Below are positions 22,814 through 26,913 of a DNA stretch of 64,000 bases, piece after piece. The notes beneath the pieces are model-generated. The model saw only the letters and a program-made list of their open reading frames with translations, did no database searches and was not told the DNA's origin. The position numbers were made by a program, and so were the translations under genes. The first letter of the stretch is position 1. Each line of letters begins with the position of its first letter. Origin of the DNA: an uncultured Candidatus Saccharibacteria bacterium (GTDB lineage Bacteria > Patescibacteriota > UBA1384 > CAZZBO01); contig CAZZBO010000001.1 in the NCBI GenBank assembly GCA_964652345.1, forward strand, positions 3,892 to 67,891, given 5' to 3'.

Positions 22814-23734
22814 TTATTTCATCTGCTTGTTAATATATTCTATTGTTTTTACGATTCCGTCTTTTAAATCTGTCTTTGGCTTCCAATCTAAATCTTTTTT
22901 GGTTTTTGAAATATCACAATAAAAATTCAAGGGTCCTGTTGTTGGCTTTTCTAGAGAATTATATTGAACTCCAAGTTGTGTAGCTATTTCGCTTACTATT
23001 TCTTCTACGCTTATGCCGTGGCCACTCGCAAGATTGTATATACCATTTAGATTACTATCTAAGGATTTCACAATCGCTTCTGCTGCATCTTCAGAATAAA
23101 TCCAATCTCTCTTGGGTTTCAAATTAAAAACTGTTATGGCGCCTTTTTTGATACCCTCGATGATCTTGCTGGGCACCAGAAATGGTGAATTATTAAAATC
23201 TTGATATGGGCCATAAATATTTGAGAGTCTAAAAACTATAACTGGAAGATTGAATTTGTCTCTATAAAAATTTACATAATTTTCAGATACGCCTTTTGTG
23301 AAAGAATATGTAGTATAATTTAAATAAAGCTTGTCTTCTTCTTTTACTGGTGGAGTGTTTTTATTGTCATATATTATTATACTTGAAAGATGAATGAATT
23401 TTTTAAGCCTCTTTTGCATTTTGGCAAATTCCAAAACTGACTTTGTAAAATTTATATTAATCTTTTCGGCTAATTCAAAATTTTCACAAAATTTGTCATT
23501 TGATAGAGCTAGTAAATTTATTATGTAATCAAAGCCATGGTTTATATTTGAAAAATTAAAGTCAACCGCATCGCAATAGATATTATGAATATTTTTAATA
23601 TCAGAAATTTTTTTATTACTTAAATTGTAAATTTCAAAATCCTTATTTTCTTTGATTAACTCAATAATATTTCGCCCTACAAAACCACTACCTCCTGTAA
23701 TAAGAATCTTTTTTATTCTTTCTTGACTAGTCAT
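22814..23734 (-). CDS. NAD(P)-dependent sugar epimerase/reductase (SDR family)
   Basis: KILITGGSGFVGRNIIELI Rossmann motif. YSFTK (YxxxK). Confidence 0.8.
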   Translation of the reverse strand: MTSQERIKKILITGGSGFVGRNIIELIKENKDFEIYNLSNKKISDIKNIHNIYCDAVDFNFSNINHGFDYIINLLALSNDKFCENFELAEKININFTKSVLEFAKMQKRLKKFIHLSSIIIYDNKNTPPVKEEDKLYLNYTTYSFTKGVSENYVNFYRDKFNLPVIVFRLSNIYGPYQDFNNSPFLVPSKIIEGIKKGAITVFNLKPKRDWIYSEDAAEAIVKSLDSNLNGIYNLASGHGISVEEIVSEIATQLGVQYNSLEKPTTGPLNFYCDISKTKKDLDWKPKTDLKDGIVKTIEYINKQMK

Positions 23735-24946
23735 TCAAATCCTTTTGGTTAATCCGTTTAAAATCATTAACATTTCGTTTTCGGTTAATTCGGGATTGTT
23801 GCCAATATAAAAACCATTATCATGTACAAATTCAGCATTTTTACAATGCATAGAATTATTAATATATTTTATAAAAAATGGTTGCCTGGACATATCACCT
23901 GTGATGATAGGCCTTGTTTCGGCAAATTGGTCAAAAATTTGTTTATAATGGTTGCAAAGTGATTTTGTTTTGCAAATTATTGGTAGAGCAAAGCTTGATA
24001 CAATGTCCATTGAGGAATTTTCTGTGGGAATAAAATCATTATTTTTTTTCAATTGCTCTAAAAAGATTTTATAATTAGATTCTCTAGTACTAACTATTTC
24101 ATCCCAATAATTAATTTGGATGTTACCTAAAAAACCGTTAATTTCAGTTGGTCGGGCGTTGTATGCTAAATCATAAAAAAGATATTTTGAATAGAAATCA
24201 TCACCATTATTTTTATCTCTTAGTTTATGTTGTTTTTCGGTGCTTAAATTTCTATCCCAGCCGTGAGCTCGAACCATAACTAGCATATCGTACAGCTCCT
24301 CACTGTCAGTACATATCATACCTCCCTCTATAGTAGAAATATGATGGCCTACGAAAAAAGAGAATGTAGATGCAAATCCAAAATTTCCTAATAATTGATT
24401 ATTTATTTTTGACCCTAATGATTCACAGTTATCCTCAAGAAAAATTATATTCTTTTTATTACATATTTTTTTTATTTCTGCTATATCATCTGACAACCCT
24501 AAAACATTAGTGATAAATAATGCATCGAGCTTGTTTTCTTCAAGATATAAGTTTAATTTTTGAGGAGAAATGTTCAAGGTTGAAATTTCGCAATCAATCA
24601 ATATCGGCTGTAAACCTAACTGAATAAGTGGCATAATATTTGTTGCCCAAGTTAAAGCTGAAACCCCAACTTTGTCGTTTTTTTTAATAATATCAAGATT
24701 AAGTAGTGACTGTATTAAAACTAAGTTAGCCATACTTCCACTATTTACATAAACGGCAAATTTTCTTCCCTGTTTTTTAGCGAAAGACTGTTCAAATTTA
24801 GTACACTCTGTATTCATACTAAAAAAATTTGCTTTTTTTATAAAATCAGCTAGCTTTTCTTTTGTTTCAGTTTCATTATAAAAAGATGATTTAATTAAAC
24901 TGATCATATTTTTTCTCCAATTTTGTTGAAATTTTGGATATACCAT
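23735..24946 (-). CDS. DegT/DnrJ/EryC1-family PLP/PMP enzyme with His in place of the Schiff-base Lys (ColD/E1-type sugar 3-dehydratase candidate)
   Basis: FSFFVGHHISTIEGG, where aminotransferases have ...K..T.GEGG. The start may be an internal Met (the 5' end overlaps the next gene by 43 nt). Confidence 0.7.
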   Translation of the reverse strand: MVYPKFQQNWRKNMISLIKSSFYNETETKEKLADFIKKANFFSMNTECTKFEQSFAKKQGRKFAVYVNSGSMANLVLIQSLLNLDIIKKNDKVGVSALTWATNIMPLIQLGLQPILIDCEISTLNISPQKLNLYLEENKLDALFITNVLGLSDDIAEIKKICNKKNIIFLEDNCESLGSKINNQLLGNFGFASTFSFFVGHHISTIEGGMICTDSEELYDMLVMVRAHGWDRNLSTEKQHKLRDKNNGDDFYSKYLFYDLAYNARPTEINGFLGNIQINYWDEIVSTRESNYKIFLEQLKKNNDFIPTENSSMDIVSSFALPIICKTKSLCNHYKQIFDQFAETRPIITGDMSRQPFFIKYINNSMHCKNAEFVHDNGFYIGNNPELTENEMLMILNGLTKRI

Positions 24947-25851
24947 TCATAAGTTTTTTTGATACCCTCCTCAAGTGTGGTCTGATGCATCCATCCAGTT
25001 GAAGTTAATTTAGATGTGTTAAGTAATTTTCTTGGGGTTCCATCGGGTTTTTCTGTATCAAATTCTATTTTACCTTTGTAGGCGGCAATTTCTTTAATTA
25101 TCTCGGCGAGTTCTTTTATGGAAATATCTTTACCAACCCCAATGTTAATAATCTCGGAAGAATCATAATTATTCATAAGAAACACAACTGCATCGGCTAA
25201 ATCATCAACATAAAGAAACTCTCTCATTGCTTTGCCCGTTCCCCAAACAGTTACGGTCGGCTCATTATTCACTTTGGCTTCATGAAACTTTCTAATAAGC
25301 GCTGGAAGAACATGAGATGATTTAAGATCAAAATTATCACCCGGTCCATAAAGATTTGTAGGCATGACTGAAATAAAATTTGTCCCATACTGCTTGTTAA
25401 AAGCTTGACACATTATAAGACCGGCAATCTTTGCTACTGCGTATGGCTTGTTTGTTTCTTCAAGTGGTCCAGTAAGCAAATATTCTTCTTTAATGGGTTG
25501 CTGGCAATCTCTTGGGTAAATACAACTACTTCCCAAAAATAATAATTTTTTAACTCCATTTTCTTGTGAGGCCTTGATAATATTTAGCTCTATGGCTAAA
25601 TTATCATAAATAAAATCCGCCCCGAATTCATTATTAGCAACTATACCCCCAACCTTTGCTGCAGCTAAAAATACATATTCAGGTTTTTCTTCTTGAAAGA
25701 ATTTTCTTACTTCATCGTTGTCTCTTAAATCAAGTTCTTTAAAATCTTTTTTTATAATATTTTTATAACCATTTTTTTCTAACTTTCTAAGAATAGCTGA
25801 ACCTACAAGACCATTATGACCAGCTAAATAAATTTTTGAATTTTTTTTCAT
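24904..25851 (-). CDS. fcl: GDP-L-fucose synthase family (Fcl/ColC-type 3,5-epimerase-4-reductase)
   Basis: IYLAGHNGLVGSAI ... FLAAAKVGGI ... SSCIYP ... YAVAKIAG. Confidence 0.85.
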   Translation of the reverse strand: MKKNSKIYLAGHNGLVGSAILRKLEKNGYKNIIKKDFKELDLRDNDEVRKFFQEEKPEYVFLAAAKVGGIVANNEFGADFIYDNLAIELNIIKASQENGVKKLLFLGSSCIYPRDCQQPIKEEYLLTGPLEETNKPYAVAKIAGLIMCQAFNKQYGTNFISVMPTNLYGPGDNFDLKSSHVLPALIRKFHEAKVNNEPTVTVWGTGKAMREFLYVDDLADAVVFLMNNYDSSEIINIGVGKDISIKELAEIIKEIAAYKGKIEFDTEKPDGTPRKLLNTSKLTSTGWMHQTTLEEGIKKTYEWYIQNFNKIGEKI

Positions 25852-25860
25852 AGTATTCCT

Positions 25861-26913
25861 TTATTTTTTATAGTATTGTTTATTTCGTGTTTCATTATTT
25901 AAATCAGCTTCGGTCATTATTTTTACTAATTCTTTAAATATTATTTTTGGCTTCCAATTTAATTGTTTCTTAGCTTTAGCAGGATTTCCTATCAATAAAT
26001 CTACCTCAGCCGGTCTAAAGTATTTAGAATCAATTTTAATAATAGTTTTATTAGTTTGTTTATCAATCCCAATTTCCTCTAATCCTTTGCCTTTCCAAAT
26101 TAAATCAATCTTTAATACTTCACACACTTCTTCAACAAAATCTCTTACTGAATATGTTTCTCCAGTTGCAATTACATAATCATCGGGTTGCTTATGTTGA
26201 AGCATTAGCCACATTGCCTCAACATAATCTTTAGCATATCCCCAATCTCTTTTTGAGTCTAAATTACCAAGATACAAACAATTATCCATATCCAATTTTA
26301 TTCTGGCTAGGCCTCTTGTGATTTTTCTTGTGACAAAAGTTTCTCCTCTTCTTGGTGATTCATGATTAAAGAGAATGCCATTAGAGGCGAATAAATTATA
26401 ACTTTCACGATAGTTTTTAGTAATCCAATAAGCATATACTTTTGCGCAACCATAAGGCGATCTTGGATAAAAGGGGGTATTTTCAGTTTGCGGTACTTCC
26501 ATCACCTTGCCATACATTTCCGATGATGAAGCTTGATAAAACTTAGTATTAATGCCTGTTTCTTTAATTGCATCTAAAATACGAAGAGTTCCAAGACCAG
26601 TGACGTCCCCTGTATACTCTGGCATGTCAAAGCTCACTCTAACATGACTCTGAGCTCCTAAATGATATATCTCATCGGGTTTTATCTTTTCAAGCAGACG
26701 ACTAATGTTGCTTGCGTCAGAGAGATCTCCATAATGAAGGAATAATTTTACCCCAAAAACATGCGGATCTTGGTATAGATGATCTATCCGACTAGTGTTG
26801 AATGTTGATGATCTTCTTATTAATCCATGTACTTCATATTTTTTTTCAAGTAATAATTCTGCTAAATATGAGCCGTCTTGTCCTGTGATGCCAGTAATAA
26901 ATGCTTTTTTCAT
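25861..26913 (-). CDS. gmd: GDP-mannose 4,6-dehydratase
   Basis: [47 protein letters not shown] ... LHYGDLSD ... YGCAKVYAY. Confidence 0.9.

What the first reader, a model, noticed from the sequence alone, without database searches (positions are those of the whole stretch)
22814..26913. GDP-mannose-derived 3,6-dideoxyhexose (colitose-like) cassette: Gmd + His-variant DegT enzyme + Fcl/ColC + extra SDR
Gmd and an Fcl-type epimerase-reductase are unambiguous. The DegT-family gene between them has FSFFVGHHISTIEGG, i.e. His where aminotransferases have the Schiff-base Lys. This is the hallmark of the PMP-dependent sugar 3-dehydratases ColD and E1 (established for ColD His188). Gmd to ColD to ColC is the GDP-L-colitose route. 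A 3,6-dideoxyhexose in the glycan of a CPR-like organism would be unusual. The extra SDR (22814..23734) could give a second product, e.g. GDP-D-rhamnose or 6-deoxytalose.
Basis: partly seen in the sequence, partly recalled or inferred. Interest (0 to 1): 0.55.

Follow-up and report, generated by a model that had tools for sequence, protein, structure and literature searches.

The report
Fucose plus dideoxyhexose sugar operon
A candidate-phyla-radiation bacterium carries a tightly packed operon that very probably makes GDP-L-fucose and also a GDP-3,6-dideoxyhexose, the latter through a ColD-type sugar 3-dehydratase coupled to an uncharacterised reductase family; the pathway type is known, the reductase is not.

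Summary
Four co-directional minus-strand genes encode Gmd, an Fcl-family epimerase/reductase, a DegT-family enzyme with His at the Schiff-base lysine position, and a further SDR. The real order is gmd-fcl-colD-SDR. The DegT enzyme is ColD-type: its best solved relative is E. coli ColD, it lacks the E1 iron-sulfur cysteine insert, and His is present in all 118 close homologues.

The Fcl-family gene carries fucose-synthase residues (N73, E87, P135, T280). These are replaced in characterised E. coli ColC and in 11 other Fcl-family proteins that are the only SDR next to a ColD. The "extra" SDR belongs to a compact unannotated family that sits beside a His-variant DegT dehydratase in 9 of 9 loci inspected, against about 5% of control SDR loci. 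It lacks Fcl's Cys/His epimerisation pair.

The best reading is a branched pathway. Gmd plus Fcl gives GDP-L-fucose. Gmd plus ColD plus the new SDR gives a GDP-3,6-dideoxyhexose of unknown stereochemistry.

ColD cassettes are common in Patescibacteria, so the gene content is not unusual there. This is a new variant of a known kind, of moderate interest.

The parts
25861..26913 (-). [quoted passage not shown] It makes GDP-4-keto-6-deoxy-D-mannose, the branch-point intermediate.
   Evidence: TIGR01472 581 bits (cut-off 415) and PF16363 512 bits. It is 61% identical to both E. coli O55 Gmd copies.
24904..25851 (-). fcl, a GDP-L-fucose synthase-type 3,5-epimerase/4-reductase. It is the Fcl type, not the ColC type.
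   Evidence: NF047922 488 bits (cut-off 500). E. coli GFS 1bsv E=4e-108. Ser107, Cys109, Tyr136, Lys140 and His179 are conserved. The Fcl-type residues N73, E87, P135 and T280 are retained, unlike in ColC-type partners.
23735..24907 (-). colD-like gene: a PLP/PMP-dependent GDP-4-keto-6-deoxy-D-mannose 3-dehydratase of 390 aa. The mechanical ORF extends to 24946.
   Evidence: E. coli ColD 2gms E=2e-66. E1 scores 139 bits and aminotransferases 80 bits or less. It is 36-37% identical to ColD. There is no E1 Cys insert. The Met14 start has an RBS and an ATGA overlap with the fcl stop.
24320..24364 (-). Active-site motif FSFFVGHHISTIEGG. The catalytic His188 codon is at 24344-24346.
   Evidence: Translations. 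His is present in 118 of 118 homologues. The preceding residue is Gly in 117 of 118; ColD has Ser187 there and E1 has Ala.
22814..23734 (-). SDRx, an extended SDR from an unannotated family. It is the predicted NADPH-dependent 4-ketoreductase for the ColD product.
   Evidence: Its start codon directly abuts the colD stop. It has GxxGxxG and an invariant Ser117/Tyr143/Lys147. Ile and Phe occupy the positions of Fcl Cys109 and His179. The family has about 80 clusters at 45% identity or more, then a sharp drop. A His-variant DegT lies nearby in 9 of 9 family loci. The AF2 model has pLDDT 96.5 and only generic SDR fold matches.
21618..22808 (-). GT4 (GT-B) glycosyltransferase, 5 nt downstream of SDRx. 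It is the candidate transferase for the pathway product.
   Evidence: PF00534 97 bits. Homologous GT4 genes lie directly after SDRx in L013 (86% identical) and L098 (46%).
20304..21602 (-). Wzx-type flippase and last gene of the operon.
   Evidence: PF01943 63 bits and PF13440. It is syntenic in L005, L006 and L013.
26915..28498 (-). Polytopic membrane protein of 527 aa, immediately upstream of gmd with a 1-nt gap and in the same orientation. Function unknown, possibly a GT-C-like enzyme.
   Evidence: The only hit is DUF6541 at 28.9 bits, just under the cut-off of 29. A 549-aa counterpart precedes gmd in L013.
42317..43753 (+). Phosphomannomutase-like gene (ManB/CpsG family), a possible precursor supply for GDP-mannose. 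It is not part of the operon.
   Evidence: NF011943 404 bits, below the cut-off of 801. No ManC was found among the window ORFs scanned.

Best explanation
This is a seven-gene minus-strand operon: membrane protein, gmd, fcl, colD, SDRx, GT4, wzx. It encodes a branched GDP-mannose-derived deoxysugar pathway for a surface glycan of a Berkelbacteria-like CPR bacterium.

1. Gmd converts GDP-mannose to GDP-4-keto-6-deoxy-D-mannose.
2. Branch 1: Fcl performs 3,5-epimerisation and 4-reduction to give GDP-L-fucose.
3. Branch 2: the ColD-type enzyme removes the C3 hydroxyl and gives GDP-4-keto-3,6-dideoxy-D-mannose. By analogy with ColD, PMP is formed from L-glutamate, His188 acts as acid/base, and no Fe-S cluster or E3 reductase is involved. 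The translationally coupled SDRx then reduces C4 with NAD(P)H to a GDP-3,6-dideoxyhexose.
4. SDRx lacks Fcl's Cys/His epimerisation pair. The most likely product therefore keeps the D configuration at C5, which means D-arabino (tyvelose-type) or D-lyxo rather than L-colitose.
5. The adjacent GT4 and Wzx then use and export the product.

Shown by sequence analysis: gene identities, the His substitution, absence of the Fe-S motif, Fcl-type rather than ColC-type residues, and the SDRx-dehydratase linkage. Inferred: the substrates, the SDRx reaction and its stereochemistry.
For: **Gene identities:**

**ColD-type character**
- E. coli ColD is the best solved relative, E=2e-66, with His on His188.
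- The E1 CxC..C..C insert is absent (the review PMC8987622 states that this motif separates E1 and SpnQ from ColD).
- ColD residues that I recall as PLP and GDP ligands (Glu162, Ser183, Arg219, Asn248, Glu329, Arg331) are conserved in 118 of 118 homologues.
- gmd is adjacent here, in every CPR locus where ColD was the query (L007, L009, L011, L013, L014, L015, L102), and in 23 of 36 viral-contig loci.

**Fcl type, not ColC type**
- Fcl model scores: E. coli Fcl 551, window 488, CPR partners that are the only SDR beside ColD 459-463, true ColC 304.
- Eight signature columns separate the groups, against 1 in a swapped control.
- On an independent set, 8 of 8 Fcl-family neighbours of ColD showed the ColC-type states. 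The window, L013, L015, two E. coli Fcl and one Fcl next to a Lys-type DegT kept the Fcl states. The split is 12 versus 6, Fisher p=5e-5.

**SDRx as the partner**
- There is zero gap between the colD stop and the SDRx start.
- SDRx-family members of 39-85% identity lie beside a His-variant DegT in 9 of 9 loci. This includes three loci with no gmd or fcl within 6 kb and one with an E1-type dehydratase. The rate in control SDR loci is 4 of 79.
- SDRx has Ile and Phe where Fcl has Cys109 and His179.

**Precedent:** in C. jejuni, interchangeable C4-reductases acting on a GDP-3,6-dideoxy-4-keto sugar give D-arabino, D-lyxo, L-ribo or L-xylo products (PMC10440746).
Against: - No biochemical data exist for any member of the SDRx family or for any CPR ColD.
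- Fold and sequence searches give SDRx no specific functional neighbour.
- The window enzyme is only 36-37% identical to E. coli ColD and has Gly where ColD has Ser187.
- In three SDRx loci a GT11 gene sits next to the pair. GT11 is the fucosyl/colitosyl-transferase family, and these genes are 32-34% identical to the E. coli O55 cluster's GT11. One locus also has a Gmm-like NUDIX. That arrangement resembles colitose clusters and hints at an L-sugar product.
- SDRx has an invariant Cys83 of unknown role that could serve in epimerisation.
- The Fcl/ColC signature rests on 18 related sequences and one characterised ColC.
- Fcl might still accept the 3-deoxy substrate.
- No ManC was found in the window.
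Confidence: 0.5

Rival explanations
1. SDRx is a non-orthologous GDP-L-colitose synthase, or another L-series synthase. It both epimerises C5 and reduces C4 of the ColD product. The operon would then make GDP-L-fucose through Fcl and GDP-L-colitose (or the L-ribo isomer) through ColD plus SDRx.
For: The SDRx-ColD linkage is the same as for the best explanation. In L096, L097 and L098 the pair lies beside a GT11 gene. In L097 and L098 that gene is 32-34% identical to the GT11 of the E. coli O55 colitose cluster. L096 also has a Gmm-like NUDIX, 35% identical to the O55 one, and no Fcl-family gene lies within 6 kb. Cys83 is invariant in the family.
Against: SDRx lacks both residues that Fcl-family enzymes, including ColC, use for epimerisation: it has Ile at Cys109 and Phe at His179. 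The more distant relative in L016 sits in a locus with a separate RmlC-like cupin epimerase (PF00908, E=1e-11). That is what a plain reductase would need. Here and in L013 and L098 the adjacent transferase is a GT4, not a GT11.
Confidence: 0.2
2. Gmd, ColD and the Fcl-family enzyme acting as ColC make GDP-L-colitose. SDRx independently reduces GDP-4-keto-6-deoxymannose to GDP-D-rhamnose or GDP-6-deoxy-D-talose, or acts on another sugar.
For: Three-gene gmd-colD-fcl-like cassettes are the common CPR arrangement, and one ColD::Fcl-like fusion exists (P0050). The window Fcl is 55-58% identical to those partners. It keeps the full catalytic set that ColC also has. fcl and colD are translationally coupled.
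Against: The window Fcl keeps the fucose-synthase state at all eight signature columns. ColC and 11 of 11 other partners that are the only SDR beside ColD differ at the four tabulated for all of them (N73, E87, P135, T280). SDRx matches the Rmd structures no better than any other SDR: 2pk3 scores 35.6 bits. Its family follows the dehydratase even where gmd is absent from the neighbourhood.
Confidence: 0.15
3. The DegT-family enzyme is not a GDP-sugar 3-dehydratase. It might use another nucleotide sugar, or act as an aminotransferase or other PLP enzyme despite the His. The gene cluster would then yield a different product class.
For: Identity to characterised ColD is only 36-37%. Ser187 is replaced by Gly. 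NCBIfam has no ColD model, and the best hit is the E1 model RfbH, below cut-off. The review PMC8987622 notes that SpnQ, a His-type enzyme, can transaminate without its reductase.
Against: ColD is far the best solved relative, at 227 bits against 139 for E1 and 80 or less for aminotransferases. The His is invariant and ColD's ligand residues are conserved. gmd adjacency recurs across dozens of loci. The Fe-S motif that E1 and SpnQ need is absent.
Confidence: 0.07

Closest known systems
GDP-L-colitose pathway of E. coli O55/O111 and Yersinia pseudotuberculosis VI (Gmd/ColB, ColD, ColC; Alam, Beyer and Liu 2004; ColD structures 2gms, 3b8x, 2r0t, 3gr9)
   Same: Gmd supplies GDP-4-keto-6-deoxymannose. 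The DegT-fold 3-dehydratase has His in place of the Schiff-base Lys and lacks an Fe-S cluster. An Fcl-family gene lies next to colD. The whole sits in a Wzx-type glycan locus.
   Different: The dehydratase is only 36-37% identical to ColD and has Gly instead of Ser187. The Fcl-family protein carries Fcl residues rather than ColC residues and scores 488 bits on the Fcl model, against 304 for ColC. An additional, unrelated SDR is coupled to colD. No GT11, Gmm or ManC lies in the operon. The host is a CPR bacterium rather than a proteobacterium with an LPS O-antigen.
GDP-3,6-dideoxyheptose pathways of Campylobacter jejuni HS:5 and HS:11 (Ghosh, Xiang and Raushel 2023, PMC10440746)
   Same: A GDP-linked 4,6-dehydratase is followed by a ColD-type PLP C3-dehydratase and then a separate NADPH C4-reductase. 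Different reductases set different C4 stereochemistry, and a D-series product results when no epimerase acts. This is the best functional analogy for ColD plus SDRx.
   Different: The substrate there is a heptose. Those C3-dehydratases are 62-67% identical to ColD. As far as the PDB hits labelled GDP-L-fucose synthase indicate, those reductases are Fcl/WcaG-family, whereas SDRx is about 25% identical to Fcl. Epimerisation there uses a separate cupin enzyme, which is absent from this window.
CDP-3,6-dideoxyhexose pathway (E1/RfbH with E3, then the paratose or abequose synthases RfbS/RfbJ)
   Same: It has a His-variant DegT 3-dehydratase followed by a dedicated SDR 4-ketoreductase that fixes the product stereochemistry. 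One SDRx-family member (L099, Nanoarchaeota) sits beside an E1-type dehydratase with the Cys-rich insert.
   Different: The window enzyme lacks the [2Fe-2S] motif and no E3 is present. The nucleotide is expected to be GDP because gmd is adjacent, not CDP. I could not obtain RfbS or RfbJ sequences, so homology of SDRx to them was not tested.
De novo GDP-L-fucose pathway (Gmd and Fcl/WcaG)
   Same: A gmd-fcl gene pair is present. Both genes are strong matches, and Fcl has the complete catalytic set and the fucose-type signature residues.
   Different: Here the pair is fused into one operon with a second branch (colD-SDRx) that draws on the same 4-keto intermediate.

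Membership tests
ColD (GDP-4-keto-6-deoxy-D-mannose 3-dehydratase) | DegT/AAT fold-type I PLP enzyme | tested here: met
   PF01041 189 bits. The protein aligns with ColD over residues 18-372.
ColD (GDP-4-keto-6-deoxy-D-mannose 3-dehydratase) | His in place of the Schiff-base Lys (ColD His188) | tested here: met
   His188 aligns with ColD His188. The column is fixed by the H188N and H188K mutant entries. His is present in 118 of 118 homologues. 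Lys-type DegTs have K in the same column.
ColD (GDP-4-keto-6-deoxy-D-mannose 3-dehydratase) | No [2Fe-2S] cysteine motif, which separates ColD from E1 and SpnQ | tested here: met
   The E1 segment DCYCAPGCDNTC has no counterpart and no Cys in the window protein. The criterion comes from PMC8987622.
ColD (GDP-4-keto-6-deoxy-D-mannose 3-dehydratase) | Ser187 preceding the catalytic His. The S187N/H188K double mutant converts ColD to an aminotransferase (recalled from Holden lab work; PDB entry 3gr9 shows NK). | tested here: not met
   Gly is at this position in the window protein and in 117 of 118 homologues. E1 has Ala. It is not Asn, so this does not point to an aminotransferase.
ColD (GDP-4-keto-6-deoxy-D-mannose 3-dehydratase) | Closer to ColD than to any other characterised DegT subfamily | tested here: met
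   ColD scores 227 bits, E1 139, a putative NDP-hexose 3-dehydratase 106, and aminotransferases 80 or less. Identity to ColD is only 36-37%.
ColD (GDP-4-keto-6-deoxy-D-mannose 3-dehydratase) | Acts on the Gmd product, using PLP and L-glutamate | not testable with these tools
   Only context is available. gmd lies in the same operon and recurs beside homologues.
[quoted passage not shown] | NCBIfam equivalog score above the curated cut-off | tested here: met
   TIGR01472 581.5 bits against 415.
Fcl (GDP-L-fucose synthase) | NCBIfam equivalog score above the curated cut-off | tested here: not met
   NF047922 488.2 bits against a cut-off of 500, a narrow miss. E. coli Fcl scores 551 and characterised ColC 304.
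Fcl (GDP-L-fucose synthase) | Catalytic Ser107/Tyr136/Lys140 plus the epimerisation pair Cys109/His179 (E. coli numbering) | tested here: met
   All five residues are conserved.
ColC (GDP-L-colitose synthase) | Fcl-family enzyme carrying the residue states shared by E. coli ColC and the other Fcl-family proteins that are the only SDR beside ColD: non-Asn73, non-Glu87, Gly/Ala135, non-Thr280. This signature was derived here. | tested here: not met
   The window protein has N73, E87, P135 and T280, like true Fcl. The ColC states were found in 12 of 12 sole ColD partners, 8 of which formed an independent test set. The signature is empirical and has not been validated biochemically.
Extended SDR nucleotide-sugar reductase (SDRx) | Rossmann GxxGxxG and a Ser/Tyr/Lys catalytic triad | tested here: met
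   GGSGFVG is present, and S117, Y143 and K147 are invariant in 41 family members. The AF2 model has pLDDT 96.5 with TM 0.8-0.88 to extended SDRs.
Extended SDR nucleotide-sugar reductase (SDRx) | Fcl/GME-type acid/base pair for epimerisation next to the 4-keto group | tested here: not met
   Ile is at the Cys109 position and Phe at the His179 position.
   2pk3 scores 35.6 bits (E=5e-8), well below generic epimerases and dehydratases at about 90 bits. In Foldseek it ranks among dozens of equivalent SDRs.

The most novel reading that the evidence does not exclude
SDRx defines a new family of NDP-4-keto-3,6-dideoxyhexose 4-reductases that partner with His-variant DegT 3-dehydratases in CPR bacteria and DPANN archaea. 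In this operon it makes a GDP-activated 3,6-dideoxy-D-hexose, either GDP-tyvelose or its C4 epimer. To my knowledge no such sugar nucleotide has been described: 3,6-dideoxy-D-hexoses are known only as CDP derivatives, and colitose is the only GDP-derived 3,6-dideoxyhexose. The residues N73, P135 and T280 of Fcl would then be a usable predictor for telling fucose synthases from colitose synthases in genomes.
Probability: 0.3. Interest if true: 0.55.

Novelty: new variant of a known kind. Interest (0 to 1): 0.4.

Why it matters
CPR/Patescibacteria live attached to host cells, and their surface chemistry is almost unknown. This locus and its many relatives predict that deoxy and dideoxy sugars, classic antigenic determinants of Gram-negative O-antigens, are common on CPR surfaces.

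The specific gain is threefold:
1. A candidate new reductase family that completes ColD-type pathways.
2. Evidence that ColD modules are combined with at least three unrelated terminal SDRs, which implies several different 3,6-dideoxyhexoses.
3. A simple residue signature that separates GDP-fucose synthases from GDP-colitose synthases. Current annotation pipelines name both 'GDP-L-fucose synthase (family)'.

All three can be tested directly with recombinant enzymes.

Tried and rejected
- **blastn of colD DNA against E. coli genomes:** no match. I reached the E. coli O55 colitose cluster instead by walking NC_013941.
- **blastn with gmd:** it hit only a fucose-type O-antigen cluster.
- **Genome-contig scan with the single protein:** only 4 loci.
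- **Metagenome scan with the SDRx alignment:** it was swamped by the generic Rossmann pattern and gave no close relatives. I reused those loci as a control set.
- **Cluster look-up:** no names.
- **Foldseek of the SDRx model against the PDB, and tblastn against plasmids:** only generic extended SDRs at about 20-30% identity, so no functional assignment.
- **Promoter and terminator scan:** no signal above shuffles in this AT-rich DNA.
- **Holden-lab ColD papers:** not held in the library. ColD ligand residues are therefore quoted from memory and checked only for conservation.
- **Planned blind test of the Fcl signature on P0033:** it turned up a third SDR type instead.
- **Literature search for colitose together with CPR terms:** nothing found.
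- **Rejected: an E1-type (Fe-S, E3-dependent) mechanism.** The Cys motif is absent.
- **Rejected: SDRx as a 4,6-dehydratase or a GalE-like epimerase.** This rests on context only, not on proof.

Full report
**Observation.** The region 20304-28498 holds seven co-directional minus-strand ORFs with gaps of -4 to 15 nt.
- Gmd (25861-26913) passes its NCBIfam equivalog cut-off, 581 bits against 415.
- The next gene (24904-25851) is Fcl-family. It scores 488 bits on NF047922 against a cut-off of 500, and its best solved relative is E. coli GDP-fucose synthetase, E=4e-108.
- The DegT-family gene follows. Its ORF runs 23735-24946, but the real start is almost certainly Met14 at 24907. That start has a GGAG 7 nt upstream and forms an ATGA overlap with the fcl stop, and the database gene call and homologues begin there.
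- The extra SDR (22814-23734) starts on the base after the DegT stop codon.

**The His variant.** FSFFVGHHISTIEGG is encoded at 24320-24364(-). It aligns without gaps to E. coli ColD FSSFYSHHIATMEGG.
- The PDB holds ColD H188N (3b8x), H188K (2r0t) and S187N/H188K (3gr9). These differ from wild type exactly in the column of the window's first His.
- The His is present in 118 of 118 close homologues and in 36 of 36 relatives found on IMG/VR contigs.
- DegT proteins from the same kinds of loci that are ordinary aminotransferases have Lys in that column.
- ColD is by far the best solved relative at 227 bits. E1 scores 139 and aminotransferases 80 or less.
- The Cys-rich insert of E1 (DCYCAPGCDNTC) carries the [2Fe-2S] ligands that distinguish E1 and SpnQ from ColD (review PMC8987622). 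It has no counterpart here.
- ColD residues that I recall as PLP and GDP ligands (Glu162, Ser183, Arg219, Asn248, Glu329, Arg331) are invariant in the clade.
- Two differences stand out. Identity to E. coli ColD is only 36-37%, and Gly replaces Ser187 in 117 of 118 homologues.
- I conclude that this is a distant but genuine ColD-type 3-dehydratase. It should be glutamate-dependent and independent of an E3 reductase.

**Organism and frequency.** GroEL in the window (45752-47443) has its closest named relatives in Candidatus Berkelbacteria and 'Patescibacteria group', at 72-74% identity. The CPR attribution therefore holds. The gene content, however, is not unusual there.
- The ColD-like query returned 7696 proteins at E<=1e-20. 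The 120 best are all 58-100% identical and about 387 aa long. Where they carry names, those names are Uhrbacteria, Moranbacteria, Patescibacteria and the cultured Minisyncoccus archaeiphilus.
- The usual arrangement is a three-gene cassette, gmd-colD-fcl-like (L007, L009). One ColD::Fcl-like fusion protein also exists (P0050, L011).
- I found no paper in the library that links colitose with CPR.

**Which SDR finishes the pathway?** I retrieved the characterised E. coli O55:H7 colitose cluster. It holds ColD, ColC, gmd, a Gmm-type NUDIX, manC, manB and a GT11.
- True ColC is only 39% identical both to E. coli Fcl and to the window protein. The window protein is 52% identical to E. coli Fcl.
- Scores on the NCBIfam Fcl model:

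| Protein | Bits |
|---|---|
| E. coli Fcl | 551 |
| Window Fcl-family protein | 488 |
| L015 counterpart | 487 |
| CPR partners that are the only SDR beside ColD | 459-463 |
| E. coli ColC | 304 |

- Column analysis found eight positions (E. coli Fcl N73, E87, P135, V161, R186, E190, V201, T280). At these the window protein and its two counterparts from SDRx-containing loci (L013, L015) keep the Fcl residue. E. coli ColC and all three sole CPR partners differ. A swapped control gave one such position.
- I then tested four of these positions (N73, E87, P135, T280) on an independent set, the Fcl-family neighbours of ColD-like genes on viral contigs. Eight of eight have Gly or Ala at 135, and none has Asn73, Glu87 or Thr280.
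- An Fcl next to a Lys-type DegT (L004) keeps all four Fcl states. The overall split is 12 versus 6 with no exceptions, Fisher p=5e-5. The sequences are not independent, so this p-value is only indicative.
- P135 precedes the catalytic Tyr136. All members of both groups keep Ser107, Cys109, Tyr136, Lys140 and His179.
- The window's Fcl-family gene is therefore a fucose-synthase type, not a ColC type.

**The 'extra' SDR (SDRx).** It belongs to a compact family of about 80 clusters at 45% identity or more, followed by a sharp drop. Where annotated at all, members are called 'NAD(P)-dependent oxidoreductase' or 'nucleoside-diphosphate-sugar epimerase'.
- A His-variant DegT lies adjacent or within about 4 kb in every family locus I could inspect: the window, L013, L014, L015, L096, L097, L098, L099 and L016, spanning 85% down to 39% identity.
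- In L096-L098 neither gmd nor an fcl-like gene lies within 6 kb. In L099 (Nanoarchaeota) the dehydratase is E1-type with the Cys insert.
- Among 79 control loci centred on generic SDRs, a His-type DegT was nearby in four.
- SDRx has the Rossmann motif and an invariant Ser117/Tyr143/Lys147. It has Ile and Phe where Fcl-family enzymes have Cys109 and His179.
- The AF2 model is confident (pLDDT 96.5), but it matches only generic extended SDRs. PDB and plasmid searches likewise give no specific relative. Rmd (2pk3) scores only 35.6 bits.
- One further ColD-Gmd locus (L102) carries a third, unrelated SDR. ColD modules are thus combined with at least three kinds of terminal SDR. This echoes the C. 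jejuni GDP-3,6-dideoxyheptose system, where different C4-reductases yield D-arabino, D-lyxo, L-ribo or L-xylo products (PMC10440746).

**Model.** Gmd makes GDP-4-keto-6-deoxymannose. Fcl converts part of it to GDP-L-fucose. ColD removes the 3-OH, and the translationally coupled SDRx reduces C4 to give a GDP-3,6-dideoxyhexose. The GT4 that follows SDRx and the Wzx flippase then use and export the product. The SDRx-GT4 pairing recurs in L013 and L098.
- Stereochemistry is the weak point. The missing epimerisation pair, and the separate RmlC-like epimerase in the L016 locus, favour a plain reductase and a D-series product.
- Against this, the GT11 genes of L096-L098 and the Gmm-like NUDIX of L096, next to ColD and SDRx, resemble the O55 colitose cluster. 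SDRx also has an invariant Cys83. An L-series product remains possible.

**Verdict.** Novelty is a new variant of a known kind. Interest is moderate at 0.4. It rests mainly on the uncharacterised reductase family and the Fcl/ColC signature, both of which can be tested directly.

Noticed in passing
window 9753-36347: The deoxysugar operon sits inside a glycan locus of about 27 kb. The locus holds an SDR, four GT2 (one fused to GtrA, the polyprenyl-phosphate sugar synthase type, at 16254-17378) and three GT4. It also holds a PMT_2-like GT-C membrane protein (17394-19418), a 640-aa membrane protein with no Pfam hit (14369-16291), two Wzx and two Wzy_C/O-antigen-ligase-like genes.
   Followed up: partly
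window 28590-30068 and 30056-31258 (both minus strand): Two surface proteins lie directly upstream of the operon. One is 492 aa, with an N-terminal hydrophobic segment, a Pro/Ser/Thr-rich linker and a C-terminal membrane anchor, and has no Pfam hit. The other is 400 aa and ends in a dockerin type I domain (PF00404, 24.5 bits). With the PMT-like gene nearby, the PST-rich linker is a plausible O-glycosylation target. This is speculation and was not tested.
   Followed up: no
L103-L138 (IMG/VR viral contigs): Thirty-six contigs classified as viral encode ColD-like proteins 43-53% identical to the window's. All have the catalytic His. gmd lies within 6 kb in 23 of them, and several have a ColC-type Fcl-family neighbour. 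Either phages carry 3,6-dideoxyhexose modules or these contigs are misclassified cellular DNA. I did not check for viral hallmark genes.
   Followed up: partly
L102 9217-10152: A ColD-Gmd pair is followed by a third kind of SDR of 311 aa. It is 27% identical to both Fcl and SDRx, and its best PDB relatives are 6dnt and GDP-mannose 3,5-epimerase at about 110 bits. A distant match to this type (about 29% identity) also lies next to gmd, on the opposite strand, in five viral-contig loci (L129-L131, L133, L134).
   Followed up: partly
L099 2599-5765 (Nanoarchaeota MAG): An archaeal locus combines three genes: an E1-type His-variant DegT with a CxCxxC...C insert, an SDRx-family member (42% identical) and a Gmd homologue (56% identical). 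E1-type chemistry next to a GDP-mannose dehydratase is an unusual combination.
   Followed up: partly
L014 3113-4081 and 8173-9141: One CPR locus carries both a diverged Fcl-family protein with non-Fcl signature residues (L73, N87, V135, A280) and an SDRx next to ColD. It also has Lys-type DegT aminotransferases and acetyltransferase-like genes. This suggests several GDP-sugar end products from one Gmd.
   Followed up: partly
window 2661-5035 and 6985-8037: A TdeIII-type restriction endonuclease (PF09520, 316 bits) lies next to a DNA methylase. An IS481-family transposase is nearby, next to tRNA-Ser and tRNA-Arg (8552-8731).
   Followed up: no
window 36457-48474: Housekeeping genes flank the glycan locus: a Na+-translocating pyrophosphatase, a VanW-like protein, CTP synthase, a phosphomannomutase-like gene (42317-43753, below its NCBIfam cut-off), a class I Trp/Tyr-tRNA synthetase, GroEL and a FemAB-family peptidyltransferase. 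No mannose-1-phosphate guanylyltransferase (ManC) was found among the ORFs scanned.
   Followed up: partly
L101 18701-20787 (E. coli O55:H7 CB9615, NC_013941): RefSeq/PGAP annotates the biochemically characterised ColD as 'DegT/DnrJ/EryC1/StrS family aminotransferase', ColC as 'GDP-L-fucose synthase family protein' and the cluster's GT11 as 'alpha-1,2-fucosyltransferase'. NCBIfam has no ColD or ColC model, so colitose pathways are invisible in standard annotation.
   Followed up: yes
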